A stretch of 64,000 nucleotides of DNA from a virus (lineage: Duplodnaviria > Heunggongvirae > Uroviricota > Caudoviricetes). This document shows positions 45,001-51,000 of this stretch, piece by piece; position 1 is the stretch's first letter; each line of letters begins with the position of its first letter. The stretch lies in IMG/VR virus record IMGVR_UViG_2718218172_000010. The stretch is one strand, 5' to 3'. The position numbers are program-made.

Positions 45001-48000
45001 ACTGTCTGAAGAAATCGGCGGCTATGAAGGTAATGCACAGGCGCTACGTATCCTGAGAAAACTGGAGAAGAAATTTTCATACTGCAACGGATTAAATCTG
45101 ACTCACCGTAGTTTACTTTCGGTTGTTAAGTATCCCATCCCCCGCGCTGCAGCTACTGCCGGCAAGTTCATTTATGATGATGATTACTATTTTTACATTA
45201 ACCTGCTTGCTGAAAATCAGCTCGATCTGAATCCCGGAGAGAAAACGATTGATGCGCAGATAATGGATCTCGCGGATGAGATTGCCTACGCCGCGCATGA
45301 CCTGGAAGATGCCCTTAGCAGGAACATGGTCACGATTGAAGATATTGAATATGAGTTTCAGATTTCTGACGAATTCCGGGGAGCGAGGGAACAGTTCAGG
45401 GAAATCGTTACTCAGTCGAGAAACACCGCTTTTCAGGCTAACTTACTGAAAACCTCAGAAGAATTTGCCATCATATTCCGCAAGGAGTTAACTTCAAATA
45501 TTGTCAATCGCCTCGTTGCAGATATTTCTGTAGTAACGAACCTGAATGGTTTTCAGGAACTGGGGTTCGGGAAACTGAATGCGTTATCCGAAGGACTCAA
45601 AAAACTTCTCTTTAAAGTCATCATGCGAAAACGTAATATCCTCACCTATGAGTTCAGGGGAAATAAAATAATCAGGGATTTATATGACTTTTACAATGAA
45701 GGAGAGAATTATAAATTTCTGCCTCCTGAACTTAAATTCACCTTACCCCAACCAGATTCCTGTATATTTGAAATCAGCAAAAAACGAGCAGTGGTTGACT
45801 ATATTTCAGGTATGATGGATACATTTGCAGTCAAGGAATGGGAAACTCACTGTCTGAAGTAACACTGCCGATTACCAGAGGCGCATATTTTCCCGTTATG
45901 GTTATTGCGCCTTTATTCCGTTTCGGTGACAGGTTATTTTAAATATTCTGGAAATGCGTTGATGGGCAAGAACAATTACCCTGAAAATAAATACAGGAAA
46001 TGGTTTTCCACAGCAATAACATATCTTATTACAGGTGGTTTGTGCTGGTATATGTTGTGGGCATCCGCTATATCTCATTATACTGTTTTACAAAATACGG
46101 TACCTGAATGGACAACATATTTTTGCACCGGTATAATCACCGGATCTCTTTCTTTTATTTATGCATTTTATATCCGCACCTTTAACAGAACATTAAAGTC
46201 TTTATTAAATGCATTCACGGGGGGATTTTGTCTTGGATTTATACTGAGTCTGAACTGTTACGATGTCTGTGTTTATCTTTTTCCGGATAAGGTTATTAGC
46301 TATGAATCTGAATATGATGTTGTTTTTCCGGGACCATCAAGAGGAAAGTATGGACATTGTGAAGCGGGACTCTGGTTGAAAGATCAAAACACTTCCAGAT
46401 GGATACAACTTTGTACAAATAAAGAGTTCCTGCGCAGTCACCATAAGCAGGGGATGACAGGTGTATGGGTAACAGCTCGTGTTAATAAAATTGGGTCGTA
46501 TATCGTGAAATATGAATTTATCTATATGTAGGTAAAAGCTGACATGTTTACCATGGATGAGTTGCTATATTTTTGCGCATACAGGAGTAATCGATTACTG
46601 GCTATACTAAAAATACAGAGAAAAGCTATCCCGGGATAAAGATTACCAACTCACAGAGACAAGCCTTGCCTTATAAACAGATAAATATCATCAACACAGA
46701 TTCAGAAGCTGAAGCAGTAAGCCATGGTTAACTGCCTGCTGCCAGTACAGATAAAACAATCAGTCTCGCTGACTGGCTCTTATCACTATCGTTATTTCAT
46801 AACTCTACAGTATAACTCATTTATCTTTATTGCCATATATTAGCATGAAGTCAGGCATTTTCATTCCCTGTCGATAATATATCAACTCCGGAGAAGTGCT
46901 TGCTATATATTCCTTGATATTAATACAAATTCAAATATATATTGCTGTTATTCATAATCAGGACCAGATGATACTTCCTGAGATATAAGAAAATCATCAA
47001 GAGAACCTCCGGCTTTTATAGCCTCTGCTATGGCCTTAGGCCGACGTCCTTGCCCATTCCAGTACATTCTTTTACCGTTATCGTCATACTCGTATTTATG
47101 CCCTCCTGACACACTTTTTCTGCCTGCCTGTGATTTTTTGCCAAATTCACGACAAAAATCTTCCAGAGATATACCATGTTCATCCATGAGTGATTTGATA
47201 GCTTTCATATTTTCCTTTCGCTCATCACGTTGCTGAATAGCTATGTCAAAGTTTTCCTTAACCTTATTTAAATCTTCATCAGACATTTCTGTGACCAGTT
47301 TTTTAACAAAGTCAATACTCAGAAGTAATGCCCGGTAAGTAATGAACTCTTCATTTTCAACAGAAATTTTCTTCTTACTCATTTATTAACACTCAGCTTT
47401 TCATTCATTTATGGCAAATCCTATCAGGTGATTTGCCATAAAAATAATATATGTATCACATTTTTCGACACTTAATCGTCACTTCCTTTCCGAAGGAAAG
47501 GCCATCGCAGAAAGTAAGAGAACGTTCTTTGTATTTGATACTTAGCGAAATTGCGCCGGTCACTACTTGTCTGAGTCCATTCACTTTCGTTAATGTTAAT
47601 GAGAAAACCCGCAGTATGATGCGTAATTTCATCAAACTGATGAAATTCGGTAGCAATCATATATCTGGTGTAGCCTGCATATTCGCAGGAAAATGAATAT
47701 CGATTATACTAATGGACTAACAATCTCCAGCCTCTTCAAGAAGATGTTATAAATACACACAGATACTGATTCTCATCCCTTTCAGGCCTGGAACACTATT
47801 TCTGCTTTTTAGCATCATCTGGTAGCGATACTTTCCAGGTATGTCGCCCCATTTTTGTTCGTCTCCATTTTTTTAAGAATTGTGCAAGTAAAAAACTTTT
47901 TACCTCTCCTGGAACTGTCGTATTTGCTGATATTGTTCGTTTGTCTAAAGAACCTGCTGGTCTTGTCATTAATATTACCTGCTGATTGCTTCACACCCGG

Positions 48001-51000
48001 GCTCCTCGCACTGCGCGCGGGTTATTGTTTCGTTTTCAGCCCCGGGGTCGCCAAGGCTCTGGATGGGGTACTACTTCCATTGACAGCATGAGGTAACAAT
48101 ACTGATGGTAACGCTGACCATTAACCGTAAACCACAGGGCATTTTCAGTAAATCACCGGCAACGCCGCTGCAGGATAAAATGAACACTGCACACAACGTG
48201 AAGGCCAGGGAACGGATACCACAGTTGAACGATAAACAGAGCCCTGCTCTGCTGAAAAAACACCGTGGCGGCATATGACAAAACGCCAGCGTAAAAACCG
48301 TAAGCGTATTAATCGTCTTGTGGAACACTGGCCTGAGTTATTCAACCGGGAAAAACCCCAACCGCGTAAAGTTGAGATACCTGACGACCTGATACAGGAT
48401 ATCGCCATCAGAGAACTGGCGTTTAGCGCAGGTGCATTACGCGCGGCAGTAGCGTCTTATGTGCAGTCTCCGCGCTATTACCGTGCGTTAATGGCTGGCG
48501 GCGCCCGTTACGACCTGAAGGGGCAGCCGTGCGGGGAAGTGACTCCACAGGAACAGAAAGAGGCAGAGACCCGGCTAATGGTGCTGAATGACCGACAAAA
48601 AGCCAGAAAACCTCGTTGACTACACAACTGCGCTGATTCACTGAGCTGTAATCAATGTACAGCGCTGTACCGGACGATGGGTAATGGCGGTCACAACCGG
48701 TAACCCCAGAGACAATGCGACGGTTTTTAACGCTACATACTGACCGGATGTATCACCCCGGGCAACCCGAAAACACCTTTCAACCTGGCATTGTCCGCCA
48801 GCGCTTATCACCTTCCAGGTCTGTTGCAATAAATCCACCCGTTGCGAACATTCTTCATCAACCGTGGCACTGGCCCGCGGATGGCAAATGCTCGTCTGGC
48901 TGAGCAGCAACAGGCATCGTATTGTTGCTCCTCCATGTTGTTCCCGCAACCAGCGTAATACCACCGGCGAGGATGGACAGGCAGTGTGATTACGCTCAGT
49001 AATACGTTCGTGCACCTGTCGGTAAAAGGAAGTACAGAATGCCTGAATCTGTTGCCCGTTGATGTTTCCTTCAGCCGAATGGAGCGTGAAGTGGACTGCC
49101 AGCAGACGCGGCCAGTGGTCCACCGCCTGCTGAACAAAACGCCGGATGTCTCCCGGCTCTGAAATTAAGGCTTCGGTTATTTGCACGAAATGTTCCTTTT
49201 CAAACCCTGTTGAATTTTGTTAAGCCGGTGCAGACACACGGGAAGGTGCGCATCAACACCGGTGTAATGCCAGTTATAAACAATGTGAATGGAATGACGA
49301 ATCAGTCAGGAAAGAGCTACAACCTGCTGGCTGACCGGAGAGGGTCAGCAGGAAAATGAACGGTAATGTCGCCAGCACCAGGGACAGGGCTGATTTCCGC
49401 AATACCAGCGCCGGCATTTTGCACATTGCCAGCGTACCGGCATCACAACACGTTTCATGCTGCTGCTCCTCGTGATTCCTCAATTCGCTGCTGCATCCAC
49501 TGCTCCACTTCACTTTTGTACCAGCGGCTGCTGCGGCCCAGCTTGATGGGTTTCGGGAAATGGCCTTCACTGATCAGCTTGTAAAACCATTTATCGGTCA
49601 TGCCGGTGAAACTGGTGATGTAGTTCATGTCGATCAGGGGATCCTCGGCACGCAGCAATACACTGTCGTGGCCTGTTATTGAGGTCAACATAGTCAGAAT
49701 ATCCTCTGTGAGATTTATGAAGGTTGGGCAAATGCGGGTGAATCTGCTGAACTGAGCTTTCAGAGCTGGCCTGCTACGGGATACCAGGGATTGCCGGCAA
49801 GGCAACGGGCTTCCGGATCGCACACTCCACGGCGATCGCGGGCGAAATCACTGAACGCCCTGATAAGGTCCTTAAACAGGGCTTCGCAGTCCGGTGACCG
49901 GCGATCCAGTACCACATCCCGGGTGATCTGCTTCTGGTACGGCTTTGCTTCACCTGGTGACGCGAACCCCAGCACATTACTCCAGGCATCCAGTATCAAC
50001 CGATCCAGTTCGGTGCCGTCGAAATACTCCTGTCTGACGCACAGCACCACGTGGTATTCCGGCTTTTCCGGATGACGGGTCAGGAGCCAGCAAAGGTCGC
50101 GTCCGGGTTTCGCATTCATCAGCGCACTGACGGTTTCGATAAAATCCATACCAAACCAGGTCTGTCTGCTGTTGAAGGCGTTGTCATGTTCCCACGGCAG
50201 ACGAAGCAGGATCCGCCGTATCCGTGAGCCGGACTGCTCACGCAGCGCACGCTCAAGGACGCCGATGACTTTGTTCTGATAAGATGGCCAGAAGGGTGCC
50301 AGGCTATAGTCGAAATAAGGAATAGCATTCATAAGATATGTTCCGTTATGCGCAGCCCACAATGCGTCCTGCCCGTGAATGAGCTGACGTGTTATGGCTT
50401 GCGGATGAGATTGATGGAATAAGTGAAGAACTGAAGCAGAACGGGAAGATAAGGGACAGAACACCGGATTCAGGTTCAGGATGAATGATCTCCGTTGACT
50501 TCAGTTCACATCATTAATCAATGCGGTAAGTTTTTACCGACGGAGTGTTTCCAGGAGCGGAGGCTCAGGCCTTAAGCTTCAGAAGTGAGGCTTACGAGGA
50601 CGCCCTGCAGCAGGACGTTCAGGAACTTCATTGCAGCCGTAGGCACACAGCCCGTCTTTTTGCTCTTCTTTCGCCAGATAATGCAGGGCACCGCGAATAT
50701 TATCGATGCTTTCAGGATCATTGTGGCGCACAGGAATGTTGATGTTGTATGTATAATGCGGCTGATATGTACAGCGGTGTGCCGAACCGCTGTTATGCGT
50801 AATAGACCGCCAGCATTCCGTAATCCGCTCCGCAAAGGGATATATTTTTTTAACCCTCTGACGATCGATCCAGAAAACCGCATGCGCATGAAAACCATGA
50901 TCAACCGTCCATTCAATCACCCAGAAGAAGCCAACGATATTTTCAAATTGTTCCACCTGCTCCAGCAGCATACGCAACTGCAATTCAAGCCAGCGATGAT

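What the first reader, a model, noticed from the sequence alone, without database searches (positions are those of the whole stretch)
46948..48619. Accessory H-NS-family gene divergently paired with a ProQ/FinO-domain gene
Horizontally acquired H-NS paralogs can modulate silencing of foreign DNA, and ProQ/FinO proteins are RNA chaperones often encoded on mobile elements. Finding both on AT-rich island DNA, divergently arranged around an ~0.9-kb intergenic region, suggests an island-encoded regulatory pair acting at DNA and RNA level.
Basis: partly seen in the sequence, partly recalled or inferred. Interest (0 to 1): 0.45.

Follow-up and report, generated by a model that had tools for sequence, protein, structure and literature searches.

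The report
Island H-NS gene beside broken FinO gene
An intact but very divergent H-NS-type DNA-silencer gene lies next to a FinO/ProQ-type RNA-chaperone gene that a 5-base duplication has broken, at the seam between the fixed part and the swappable cargo of a common E. coli genomic island, so the two are neighbours by accident, not a working pair.

Summary
Both ORFs exist where stated. 46948-47382(-) encodes a full-length 144-aa H-NS-family protein: both Pfam domains match and the QGR motif is kept. It is only 29% and 35% identical to K-12 H-NS and StpA.

48275-48619(+) is a complete FinO domain, but it is the 3' two-thirds of a gene of about 169 aa. A 5-bp tandem duplication (CTGCT, 48244-48253) splits that gene into a 57-aa and a 114-aa ORF. 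Since the split the domain has evolved neutrally (21 non-synonymous, 1 nonsense and 7 synonymous changes; intact alleles give dN/dS 0.11). The window allele has Arg at the position of ProQ Leu34, where L34Q abolishes ProQ function.

The FinO-like gene belongs to a conserved island backbone (UCP030791, AlpA, Gp2-like genes). The DNA upstream of it is interchangeable cargo. The adjacency occurs in one lineage only: 201 of 5426 complete E. coli genomes, against 1102 with the FinO-like gene. A 61%-identical 146-aa variant of the H-NS gene sits on the other side of the backbone in sibling islands. The spacer is a mosaic with no detectable RNA element.

Verdict: an ordinary mosaic junction. The H-NS-like clade is uncharacterised and mildly interesting. 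The proposed regulatory pair is not supported.

The parts
46948..47382 (-). Intact 144-aa H-NS-family gene (RefSeq WP_000038247.1), a divergent island-borne clade
   Evidence: Both Pfam H-NS domains score above their cutoffs. The QGR motif is kept as 'WNGQGRRP'. Identity is 29% to K-12 H-NS and 35% to StpA. dN/dS against the 146-aa variants is 0.41-0.53 at dS 0.40-0.54, with the ORF intact throughout.
47383..47488 (-). Conserved upstream region of the H-NS cassette, including a perfect 13-bp palindrome at 47408-47442
   Evidence: Homology to the 146-aa-variant loci (75% over 46952-47488) ends at 47488. Alignment; palindrome I3. Any role as promoter or operator is inferred, not shown.
46757..46775 (-). 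Terminator-like hairpin about 175 nt downstream of the H-NS-like stop codon
   Evidence: Consensus scan only. Weak evidence.
47489..47826 (.). Lineage-specific AT-rich spacer (37% GC) between the H-NS cassette and the backbone
   Evidence: No homology to any sibling locus except the identical cq9 lineage. No Rfam match, no family match for the 81-aa ORF 47451-47696.
47796..47969 (-). 57-aa ORF, a relic of a small phage gene
   Evidence: Only residues 25-56 match phrog_21027 (E 1e-10). 47796-47879 is 75% identical to the end of a 65-aa ORF in the phage-like loci L013, L014, L016 and L017.
47827..48104 (+). Variable leader on the backbone side, upstream of the FinO-like gene
   Evidence: Homology starts at 47827 in L003 and L006, at 48061 in L018 and at 48076 in L010 and L011. 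L009 and L019 carry a roughly 200-bp insertion. Folding of 47960-48110 is no better than shuffled sequence (z = -0.16). No Rfam hit.
48105..48278 (+). 5' part of the split FinO-like gene (57-aa ORF, WP_000258194.1), corresponding to the basic N-terminal extension of the intact protein
   Evidence: It aligns with residues 1-50 of the intact 169-aa homologues P0121 and P0123. The frame is lost at the duplication.
48244..48253 (+). 5-bp tandem duplication CTGCT|CTGCT that causes the frameshift
   Evidence: The DNA alignment with the intact alleles L010 and L011 shows a 5-bp gap at this point. The same lesion occurs in L001, L003, L006, L018, L026-L031 and L035-L037.
48275..48619 (+). 3' part of the split FinO-like gene: 114-aa ORF holding the whole FinO domain (WP_000166949.1). 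Probably a pseudogene remnant
   Evidence: PF04352, E 7.8e-22. Matches ProQ, FinO, NMB1681 and RocC structures by sequence. Substitutions are neutral within the split lineage. An Arg private to this allele sits at the position of ProQ Leu34 (L34Q is loss-of-function in PMC8464044).
48638..49186 (-). UCP030791-family backbone gene (182 aa), convergent with the FinO-like gene, 18 bp between the stop codons
   Evidence: Always found next to the FinO-like gene in sibling islands.
49455..49691 (-). AlpA-family regulator gene of the island backbone
   Evidence: Pfam Phage_AlpA, E 5.1e-10. Coordinates from the RefSeq annotation of cq9.
44630..46531 (+). Cargo module found with the 144-aa H-NS gene in every context read: anti-phage-type dGTPase (44630-45862) and a 189-aa membrane-protein ORF (45962-46531)
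   Evidence: PADLOC dGTPase, E 1.5e-109. Present in L001, L030, L031 and L035-L037. The module is in 344 of 5426 genomes.

Best explanation
The finding lies on the seam between two kinds of DNA in a tRNA-Phe-type (CP4-like) integrative island of E. coli.

Right of about 47830-48075 is the conserved backbone. Its order is FinO-like gene, UCP030791, AlpA, a 190-aa gene, a Gp2-like 188-aa gene, YfjI and YfjJ. Left of that point is interchangeable, AT-rich cargo.

In this lineage the first cargo gene is a self-contained H-NS-family cassette: a conserved upstream region of about 100 bp, a 144-aa ORF and a putative terminator. It is followed by an anti-phage dGTPase module.

Inferred function of the H-NS-like protein. 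It is probably a working accessory nucleoid protein. Its C-terminal QGR domain should bind the minor groove of AT-rich DNA, and it should multimerise through an H-NS-type N-terminal coiled coil. Its first dimerisation site is very different from that of H-NS. It therefore probably forms its own homo-oligomers rather than mixing freely with H-NS, StpA or Hha. Its likely targets are the island's AT-rich cargo and perhaps other AT-rich DNA. The ORF integrity, domain content and selective constraint are shown here. DNA binding, oligomerisation and targets are inferred.

The FinO-like gene. Its ancestor encoded a FinO-like RNA chaperone of about 169 aa with a basic N-terminal extension. Here a 5-bp duplication has inactivated it and it is decaying. 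Its position next to the H-NS-like gene reflects cargo insertion next to the last backbone gene, not joint function.
For: Family assignments.

Split gene:
- Intact homologues of 165-180 aa cover 97-100% of the joined 57-aa and 114-aa sequence, at up to 85% identity.
- The 5-bp insertion is seen against the intact alleles L010 and L011.

Decay of the FinO-like gene:
- dN/dS is 0.11 between two intact alleles. Among split alleles it is 0.77-1.40, or undefined where no synonymous change exists.
- Seven split alleles carry 21 non-synonymous, 1 nonsense and 7 synonymous codon changes. Without L035 the count is 12 to 2. An earlier hand count of 11 to 2 gave P = 2.5e-5 if intact-allele constraint still held (expected non-synonymous fraction about 0.27), and 0.40 under neutrality.
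- Leu to Arg, private to this allele, falls at the position of ProQ L34. L34Q is loss-of-function in Salmonella ProQ (PMC8464044).
- L035 and L037 have a premature stop, leaving a 68-aa ORF. No ORF is called in L036.
- An independent 2-bp deletion splits the gene in L023-L025, L009 and L019. RefSeq marks L019 as frameshifted.

Backbone versus cargo:
- The FinO-like gene always lies next to UCP030791 and AlpA.
- The DNA upstream of it differs between islands: dnd/dpt genes (L018, L026-L029), tet/str/sul resistance genes (L019), PTS and transketolase genes (L023-L025), or type VI secretion genes (L010, L011).
- GC content steps from 37% to 53% across the spacer.

Counts in 5426 complete E. coli genomes:
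- FinO-like gene: 1102.
- 144-aa H-NS allele at 95% identity or more: 206.
- Whole locus: 201.

The 146-aa variant sits on the other side of the backbone. Among loci that extend far enough to tell, 4 contexts lack a FinO-like gene.

Constraint on the H-NS-like gene: the ORF is intact across dS 0.40-0.54, with dN/dS 0.41-0.53.

Dimerisation site 1: H-NS R12, R15, L26, L30 and L33 correspond to D24, K27, L38, K42 and F45. The roles of these residues are taken from PMC7544231.
Against: - No expression data exist for either gene.
- The promoter scan found no sigma-70 consensus upstream of the H-NS-like gene on its own strand.
- dN/dS of about 0.5 for the H-NS-like gene shows only moderate constraint. 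Alleles L030 and L035 are mosaics, so recombination affects those estimates.
- The AlphaFold model is of low confidence (mean pLDDT 51). Only the order of its secondary-structure elements could be used.
- The 114-aa ORF keeps a complete FinO domain and an ATGA start/stop overlap that could allow coupled translation. Minimal FinO-domain proteins are known to function (NMB1681 and Lpp1663; PMC9977716, PMC7668265).
- The substitution counts are small, and some of the L035 changes may have arrived by recombination with the other split lineage.
- Both H-NS-clade and FinO-like genes recur near the same five-gene backbone block. A looser link at the level of the whole island is therefore not excluded.
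Confidence: 0.7

Rival explanations
1. One reading: the two genes form a functional divergent pair. They share a control region and jointly regulate island genes, at the DNA level through the H-NS paralogue and at the RNA level through the FinO-domain chaperone.
For: The genes are adjacent and divergent, and 201 genomes share the arrangement. Both gene families recur within a few kb of the same AlpA backbone block in sibling islands. L010 and L011 have an intact FinO-like gene together with a full 146-aa H-NS variant.
Against: The FinO-like gene is frameshifted and evolving neutrally. The adjacency is limited to one lineage. The spacer is a mosaic with breakpoints at 47488 and at 47827-48076. 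It has no Rfam match and no unusual RNA structure. The 146-aa variant lies about 4.5 kb away on the other side of the block and often has no FinO-like gene nearby.
Confidence: 0.06
2. The split FinO-like gene still works. The 114-aa ORF is translated by termination-reinitiation at the ATGA overlap and acts as a minimal FinO-domain RNA binder. The N-terminal extension has been shed, perhaps under selection.
For: The whole FinO domain is retained. There is an ATGA overlap at 48275-48278. Two independent frameshifts (a 5-bp duplication and a 2-bp deletion) both fall upstream of the conserved Met58 and leave a 114-aa ORF. The residues aligned with ProQ R58, Y70 and R80 are kept (R80's role in RNA binding is from PMC8464044; the roles of R58 and Y70 are from memory). 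Minimal FinO-domain proteins are functional in other bacteria (PMC9977716).
Against: The substitution pattern since the split is neutral, at 21 non-synonymous, 1 nonsense and 7 synonymous changes. The window allele has Arg at the hydrophobic-core position equivalent to ProQ L34, where L34Q is loss-of-function. The second split lineage has Asp to Asn at the position of ProQ D82, where D82E is loss-of-function. Further truncations occur in L035-L037, L009 and L019. No good Shine-Dalgarno sequence lies before the ATG.
Confidence: 0.12
3. The H-NS-like gene belongs functionally to the adjacent defence cargo. It would act as a dedicated silencer or regulator of the dGTPase module rather than as a general nucleoid protein.
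For: Every context read for the 144-aa allele (window, L001, L030, L031, L035-L037) has the dGTPase and the 189-aa gene immediately downstream and convergent. The whole block is AT-rich.
Against: All these contexts belong to one lineage, so the linkage may simply be inherited. The dGTPase module is in 344 genomes but the 144-aa allele in only about 206. The 146-aa variant has no dGTPase nearby. There is no PADLOC model for the H-NS-like protein.
Confidence: 0.12
4. The H-NS-like gene is itself a non-functional passenger on its way to decay.
For: dN/dS of about 0.5 is high for a nucleoid protein. At the other site in sibling islands the gene is often reduced to a 71-aa fragment or fused to an HTH domain. 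No consensus promoter was found.
Against: The full-length ORF survives across dS 0.40-0.54 with both domains and the QGR motif, in 144-, 145- and 146-aa forms. About 95 bp upstream are also conserved. The 146-aa form alone is on more than 1000 contigs.
Confidence: 0.1

Closest known systems
Horizontally acquired H-NS paralogues of Enterobacteriaceae: Hfp (also called HNS-B or H-NS2) on asnW/serU islands, HlpC, Sfh (HppH) on IncHI plasmids, and Sfx (HppX) on IncX plasmids
   Same: It is a full-length, two-domain H-NS-family protein encoded on AT-rich mobile DNA. It keeps the QGR minor-groove motif and dimerisation site 2. Its size is similar (144 aa). The expected role is accessory silencing, or a 'stealth' function that spares the host's H-NS pool.
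   Different: Identity to H-NS and StpA is only 29% and 35%. The published classification required more than 50% identity to H-NS (PMC7544231). The protein has a 12-residue N-terminal extension and an 11-residue deletion in the long central helix. Only 1 of the 5 site-1 dimerisation residues is kept. Arg12, which H-NS needs to bind Hha and which that paper reports as conserved in StpA, Hfp, HlpC and HppX, is Asp here. The closest full-length plasmid homologues are about 33% identical. All 506 places matched in E. coli are chromosomal.
FinO of F-like plasmids, and other mobile-element FinO-domain proteins such as FopA
   Same: The intact ancestor has the FinO architecture: a basic N-terminal extension followed by a FinO domain, 165-180 aa against 186 for FinO. 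It is carried by a mobile element. The domain aligns with FinO residues 75-175 and with the FinO crystal-structure sequence 1DVO.
   Different: The score is below the NCBIfam FinO subfamily cutoff (59.4 against 136). The gene is chromosomal and island-borne, next to UCP030791 and AlpA, not in a tra operon. No FinP-like antisense RNA or any Rfam element was found nearby. In this window the gene is split and decaying.
Minimal FinO-domain proteins: Neisseria NMB1681 (minimal ProQ) and Legionella Lpp1663
   Same: The 114-aa ORF is about the same size and consists of the FinO domain alone. It matches the NMB1681 sequence at E 2.6e-8.
   Different: Those are intact genes with shown RNA binding. This ORF is the product of a frameshift in a longer gene, and it shows neutral substitution and a likely destabilising core change.
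CP4-57, CP4-6 and CP4-44 type cryptic integrative elements of E. coli
   Same: The gene content is the same: YfjI, YfjJ/YagK (inovirus Gp2 family), AlpA, a YeeP-like GTPase, antirestriction protein, a RadC/JAB protein and CbtA/CbeA. In cq9 there is a tyrosine integrase at a tRNA gene.
   Different: This family also carries a cargo region of about 40 kb between the integrase and the FinO-like gene, plus FinO-like and H-NS-clade genes. The statement that the K-12 elements lack these genes is from memory and was not tested here.

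Membership tests
H-NS family (Pfam Histone_HNS / Histone_HNS_N) | C-terminal DNA-binding domain with the Q-G-R AT-hook-like motif | tested here: met
   PF00816, E 2.2e-12, 46.9 bits against a cutoff of 25.6. 'WNGQGRRP' aligns with H-NS 'WTGQGRTP'.
H-NS family (Pfam Histone_HNS / Histone_HNS_N) | N-terminal coiled-coil oligomerisation domain | tested here: met
   PF22470, 32.7 bits against a cutoff of 24.5, residues 19-76. The site-2 segment 'ERKENMKAIKSLMDEHGISLEDF' aligns with StpA and H-NS. The AF2 helix order H11-19, H23-32, H35-69, H73-85 matches the H-NS layout as recalled from memory, but the model is of low confidence (pLDDT 51).
H-NS family (Pfam Histone_HNS / Histone_HNS_N) | Binds and silences AT-rich DNA; forms oligomers | not testable with these tools
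   Needs biochemistry or ChIP-seq.
Named clades H-NS, StpA, Hfp and HlpC (Fitzgerald et al. 2020, PMC7544231) | More than 50% amino-acid identity to H-NS; Arg12 conserved; equivalog-level match | tested here: not met
   29% and 35% identity to K-12 H-NS and StpA. NCBIfam StpA 62.7 bits against a cutoff of 202, and H-NS 34.4 against 211. The Arg12 position is Asp24. Hfp and HlpC sequences themselves were not available for direct comparison.
ProQ/FinO family (PF04352) | FinO RNA-binding domain present | tested here: met
   77.8 bits against a cutoff of 27, profile positions 4-107 of 109. Sequence matches to ProQ, FinO, NMB1681 and RocC structures.
ProQ/FinO family (PF04352) | Intact gene, as in its island-borne orthologues (165-180 aa, one ORF) | tested here: not met
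   The 5-bp duplication at 48244-48253 splits the frame.
ProQ/FinO family (PF04352) | Sequence maintained by purifying selection | tested here: not met
   dN/dS is 0.11 between intact alleles and about 1 among split alleles. There are 21 non-synonymous, 1 nonsense and 7 synonymous changes. The sample is small.
ProQ/FinO family (PF04352) | Membership of the FinO or ProQ subfamilies proper | tested here: not met
   NCBIfam FinO 59.4 bits against 136; ProQ 48.4 against 127.
ProQ/FinO family (PF04352) | A cognate structured or antisense RNA partner | tested here: inconclusive
   No Rfam hit in 46500-49300 at E up to 1. The leader does not fold unusually well. An undescribed partner elsewhere cannot be excluded.
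Conserved divergent gene pair (functional module) | Adjacency kept across diverged lineages, with a conserved shared intergenic region | tested here: not met
   The adjacency is found only in the lineage at 95% identity or more: 201 genomes, against 1102 with the FinO-like gene. Breakpoints lie inside the spacer. Other islands have different cargo or a differently placed H-NS gene.
tRNA-associated CP4-like integrative island | Tyrosine integrase next to a tRNA gene, plus YfjI, YfjJ, AlpA and a CbtA/CbeA backbone | tested here: met
   Met in the identical locus of strain cq9: tRNA-Phe and an integrase about 40 kb to the left, backbone genes to the right. The window itself has no tRNA gene and is interrupted by scaffold gaps.

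The most novel reading that the evidence does not exclude
The 144-146-aa proteins form a distinct, unstudied clade of the H-NS family, present in 438 of 5426 complete E. coli genomes and always chromosomal. In every context read here, clade members lie in islands with this type of backbone, next to the AlpA block. Their first dimerisation site is remodelled and lacks the Arg12 needed for Hha binding. They may therefore form a silencing filament that is insulated from H-NS, StpA and Hha and dedicated to the island. Such a filament could keep AT-rich defence cargo or the AlpA excision switch quiet. In the ancestral island it may have worked alongside the intact 169-aa FinO-like chaperone, as still seen together in L010 and L011.
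Probability: 0.12. Interest if true: 0.5.

Novelty: new member of a known kind. Interest (0 to 1): 0.2.

Why it matters
As proposed, the finding does not hold: the "DNA-level plus RNA-level regulatory pair" is a chance neighbourhood, and one partner is a pseudogene.

Three modest points remain of value:
1. A divergent H-NS-family clade falls outside the published H-NS, StpA, Hfp, HlpC and Hpp classification, and about 8% of complete E. coli genomes carry it. If it forms filaments that do not mix with H-NS, it would be a useful case for how cells keep several silencers apart.
2. The FinO-like gene marks the boundary between backbone and cargo in a common island family. The cargo beyond it includes defence genes (dGTPase, type I restriction-modification, dnd/dpt) and resistance genes, so the gene is a practical landmark for mining cargo.
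3. RefSeq names the 114-aa ORF "ProQ/FINO family protein" although it is a frameshift remnant. Censuses of FinO-domain proteins may therefore count pseudogenes.

Tried and rejected
- Rfam scans, at gathering thresholds over the whole window and at E up to 1 over 46500-49300, found no RNA family in or near the spacer.
- Folding the FinO-like leader 47960-48110 gave z = -0.16, so there is no sign of a structured RNA.
- The promoter and terminator scan gave no more sites than shuffled sequence.
- The scan of one genome per species with the FinO-like alignment confirmed only one locus (L022, Escherichia ruysiae). A cross-species co-occurrence test was therefore not possible.
- Phage records hold almost no relatives of either protein. 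Plasmid records hold only distant ones, apart from a few contigs that look like mis-assigned chromosomal DNA.
- PADLOC has no model matching the H-NS-like, FinO-like or UCP030791 proteins.
- AlphaFold2 on a shallow 16-sequence alignment gave mean pLDDT 51. I did not run a fold search on it.
- Literature searches by RefSeq accession, and for H-NS together with FinO or dGTPase on islands, found nothing on this locus.
- I briefly thought the dGTPase module and the H-NS-clade gene were always linked, because 206 + 112 = 318. I rejected this: the 112 partial matches are 71-aa C-terminal fragments at the other island site, with no dGTPase nearby.
- The idea that the 5-bp insertion is an assembly error is rejected. 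It is present in many independent complete genomes, including cq9 and 55989.

Full report
**1. What is at the coordinates**

ORF listing confirms a 144-aa ORF at 46948-47382 on the minus strand and a 114-aa ORF at 48275-48619 on the plus strand.

The 144-aa protein matches both H-NS Pfam domains above their curated cutoffs:
- Histone_HNS, the C-terminal domain: 46.9 bits against 25.6.
- Histone_HNS_N: 32.7 bits against 24.5.

The 114-aa protein matches PF04352 (ProQ/FinO) over nearly the whole profile, at 77.8 bits against a cutoff of 27. NCBIfam gives only sub-threshold matches to StpA, H-NS, FinO and ProQ. Both proteins are therefore family members but belong to none of the named subfamilies. 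Sequence searches against solved structures agree. The first protein matches the DNA-binding domains of StpA, H-NS and Ler. The second matches ProQ, FinO, NMB1681 and RocC.

**2. Where the locus comes from**

The stretch 46600-48700 is 100% identical to several complete E. coli chromosomes. RefSeq annotation of strain cq9 places it in a CP4-like integrative island. The island carries YfjI, inovirus-Gp2/YfjJ proteins, AlpA, a YeeP-type GTPase, an antirestriction protein, a JAB/RadC protein and CbtA/CbeA. It is inserted at tRNA-Phe beside yqgA, with a tyrosine integrase about 40 kb to the left of the FinO-like gene.

Between the integrase and the FinO-like gene lies cargo: type I restriction-modification, MazG, thymidylate synthase, insertion sequences, and a dGTPase that matches the PADLOC anti-phage dGTPase model at E 1.5e-109.

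The window is a scaffolded draft with two 100-N gaps, at 44123-44222 and 61223-61322. The phage tail-fibre ORF left of the first gap is therefore not shown to be physically adjacent to the island.

**3. The FinO-like ORF is part of a split gene**

A 57-aa ORF (48105-48278) ends in an ATGA overlap with the start of the 114-aa ORF. I searched with the two products joined. Many E. coli proteins of 158-180 aa cover 97-100% of the joined sequence, for example P0121 and P0123 (169 aa, 85% and 84% identity).

DNA alignment with the loci that encode P0123 (L010 and L011) shows a 5-bp insertion in the window. It is a tandem CTGCT|CTGCT at 48244-48253, and it shifts the frame. The same lesion is present in cq9, 55989 and eleven other loci (L003, L006, L026-L031, L035-L037). 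It is therefore a real, inherited mutation and not an assembly error.

A second, independent lesion splits the gene in another lineage: a 2-bp deletion, CATATG to CATG (L023-L025, L009, L019). L009 and L019 also carry a 1-bp insertion inside the domain, and RefSeq marks L019 as frameshifted.

**4. Is the remnant still under selection?**

- For the domain codons, dN/dS is 0.11 between two intact alleles (L011 and L022). Among alleles with the 5-bp duplication it is 0.77-1.40, or undefined because no synonymous change exists.
- Seven distinct split alleles, polarised against the intact allele, show 21 non-synonymous, 1 nonsense and 7 synonymous codon changes. Leaving out the most decayed allele (L035), the count is 12 to 2.
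- With about 240 non-synonymous and 72 synonymous sites, this is the neutral expectation. An earlier hand count of 11 to 2 was tested against the constraint seen between intact alleles and gave P = 2.5e-5. Under neutrality it gave P = 0.40.
- The window allele alone has Arg where the family has a nearly invariant Leu. This position aligns with ProQ Leu34. L34Q, in the hydrophobic core, is a validated loss-of-function change in Salmonella ProQ (PMC8464044).
- L035 and L037 have a premature stop that leaves a 68-aa ORF. No ORF is called in L036.

I conclude that the FinO-like gene here is most likely a decaying pseudogene. Residual function of the 114-aa ORF through coupled translation remains possible but disfavoured.

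**5. Backbone versus cargo**

In every related locus the FinO-like gene lies next to the same genes: UCP030791 (convergent, 18 bp between the stop codons), AlpA, a 190-aa gene and a Gp2-like 188-aa gene. What lies upstream of it varies:

| Upstream DNA | Loci |
|---|---|
| H-NS-like gene, 189-aa gene, dGTPase | window, L001, L030, L031, L035-L037 |
| dnd/dpt phosphorothioation genes | L018 (strain 55989), L026-L029 |
| tetA, strAB, sul2 resistance genes | L019 |
| PTS and transketolase genes | L023-L025 |
| type VI secretion genes | L010, L011 |

BLAST of the window region against all fetched loci puts the breakpoints inside the spacer:
- The H-NS cassette (46952-47488) is 75% identical to the loci of the 146-aa variant.
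- 47489-47826 is specific to this lineage.
- Backbone homology begins at 47827, 48061 or 48076, depending on the island.

GC content steps from 37% to 53% across the spacer. The spacer also holds a relic of a small phage gene: the 57-aa minus-strand ORF at 47796-47969, of which only the C-terminal 32 residues match phrog_21027. It has no Rfam match and no unusually stable fold.

**6. How common is the pairing?**

Counts in 5426 complete E. coli genomes:

| Feature | Genomes |
|---|---|
| FinO-like gene, any state | 1102 |
| Any member of the H-NS-like clade (all chromosomal) | 438 |
| 144-aa allele at 95% nucleotide identity or more | 206 |
| Whole locus 46600-48700 | 201 |

The adjacency therefore marks one lineage.

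The commoner 146-aa variant (61% identical, on more than 1000 contigs) lies on the other side of the backbone block, between an Mrr-like gene and the Gp2-like 188-aa gene. Three of the nine loci fetched through the 146- and 145-aa variants have a split or decayed FinO-like gene. Four have none, and two end too early to tell. At that site the H-NS-clade gene is often cut to a 71-aa C-terminal fragment or fused to an HTH domain.

**7. The H-NS-like protein**

In a multiple alignment it is 29% identical to K-12 H-NS and 35% to StpA. BLASTP aligns only residues 83-135 with H-NS and 54-133 with StpA.

- It keeps the QGR motif and the site-2 helix-turn-helix segment.
- It has a 12-residue N-terminal extension and an 11-residue deletion in the long central helix.
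- The H-NS site-1 dimerisation residues R12, R15, L26, L30 and L33 correspond to D24, K27, L38, K42 and F45. Their roles are taken from PMC7544231.
- That paper required more than 50% identity to H-NS and reports Arg12 as conserved in StpA, Hfp, HlpC and HppX. This protein therefore lies outside those clades. I could not obtain Hfp or HlpC sequences for a direct comparison.
- The gene stays intact across dS 0.40-0.54, with dN/dS 0.41-0.53. Alleles L030 and L035 are mosaics of the 144- and 146-aa types, which indicates recombination.
- About 95 bp upstream are conserved between the variants, including a palindrome that is perfect over 13 bp in the window.
- AlphaFold2 gave a low-confidence model (pLDDT 51). 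The order of its helices and strands fits the H-NS layout as recalled from memory.

**8. Mechanism, and how firmly each step is known**

Shown:
- The domain content, ORF integrity and moderate constraint of the H-NS-like gene.
- The frameshift, neutral drift and core substitution in the FinO-like gene.
- The mosaic nature of the spacer.
- The restriction of the adjacency to one lineage.

Inferred from what is known of the families:
- The 144-aa protein binds the minor groove of AT-rich DNA through QGR and multimerises through its coiled coil.
- Because site 1 has diverged and Arg12 is lost, it probably pairs with itself rather than with H-NS, StpA or Hha.
- It acts as an accessory silencer of AT-rich island DNA.
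- The ancestral 169-aa FinO-like protein was presumably an RNA chaperone for an unidentified island RNA.

**9. Verdict**

The family assignments are right, but the "regulatory pair" reading is not supported, and its own refutation test is met. This is a new, divergent member of a known kind (an accessory H-NS paralogue) beside a pseudogenised FinO-family gene at a backbone-cargo junction. Interest is low, at 0.2. The most novel reading still open is that this clade forms an insulated, island-dedicated silencing system (probability about 0.12).

Noticed in passing
window 44123-44222 and 61223-61322: Two runs of exactly 100 N are scaffold gaps. The island fragment 44223-61222 is a single contig. 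Its adjacency to the phage tail-fibre ORF (43036 onward) on the left, and to the sequence on the right, is not established.
   Followed up: partly
window 1557-1735(+), 14744-14919(+), 40115-40200(-): Rfam matches above gathering score elsewhere in the window: RalA (the antitoxin sRNA of RalR), the sok antitoxin RNA, and sRNA-Xcc1. These point to prophage or toxin-antitoxin content in the other scaffold pieces.
   Followed up: no
window 44630-46531: An anti-phage-type dGTPase (PADLOC E 1.5e-109) is followed by a 189-aa ORF with weak sub-threshold transporter matches (probably a membrane protein). The two-gene module is present in 344 of 5426 complete E. coli genomes. An IS3 remnant lies just upstream.
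   Followed up: partly
L012-L017, about 5540-6500: An intact 165-aa FinO-like protein (P0239, 52% identical, on more than 1000 contigs) is encoded directly after an SSB gene and a DUF927 primase-like gene. The element is phage-like, with AlpA, AntA and Bro-N genes. This is a second, widespread mobile context for this FinO subfamily.
   Followed up: no
L026 and L028 11337-11552; L029 12673-13413; L039 6997-7212: In sibling islands the H-NS-clade gene is often reduced to a 71-aa ORF holding only the C-terminal DNA-binding part. In L029 it is fused to HTH_28/HTH_32 domains, giving a 246-aa product. Whether these fragments act as dominant-negative or stand-alone DNA binders is unknown.
   Followed up: partly
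window 47408-47442: A perfect 13-bp palindrome, TTTATGGCAAATC / GATTTGCCATAAA with a 9-nt spacer, lies 26-60 nt upstream of the H-NS-like start codon. It is partly conserved upstream of the 146-aa variant. It may be an operator or a 5'-UTR hairpin.
   Followed up: partly
window 48617-48640: The FinO-like gene and the UCP030791 gene converge with only 18 bp between their stop codons and no terminator between them. Their transcripts would overlap as antisense RNAs. This is a conceivable ancestral substrate for a FinO-type chaperone, but it was not tested.
   Followed up: no
L023-L025 6838-7345; L009; L019 9001-9509: An independent 2-bp deletion (CATATG to CATG) splits the same FinO-like gene at almost the same place as the 5-bp duplication. 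That lineage also has Asp to Asn at the position of ProQ D82. Either the linker is a mutational hot spot or loss of the full-length protein is repeatedly tolerated.
   Followed up: partly
RefSeq annotation of L001, L018 and others: RefSeq names the 114-aa frameshift remnant 'ProQ/FINO family protein' and the 57-aa piece 'hypothetical protein'. It flags only some alleles, such as L019, as frameshifted. Counts of FinO-domain proteins taken from annotation will therefore include pseudogene fragments.
   Followed up: yes
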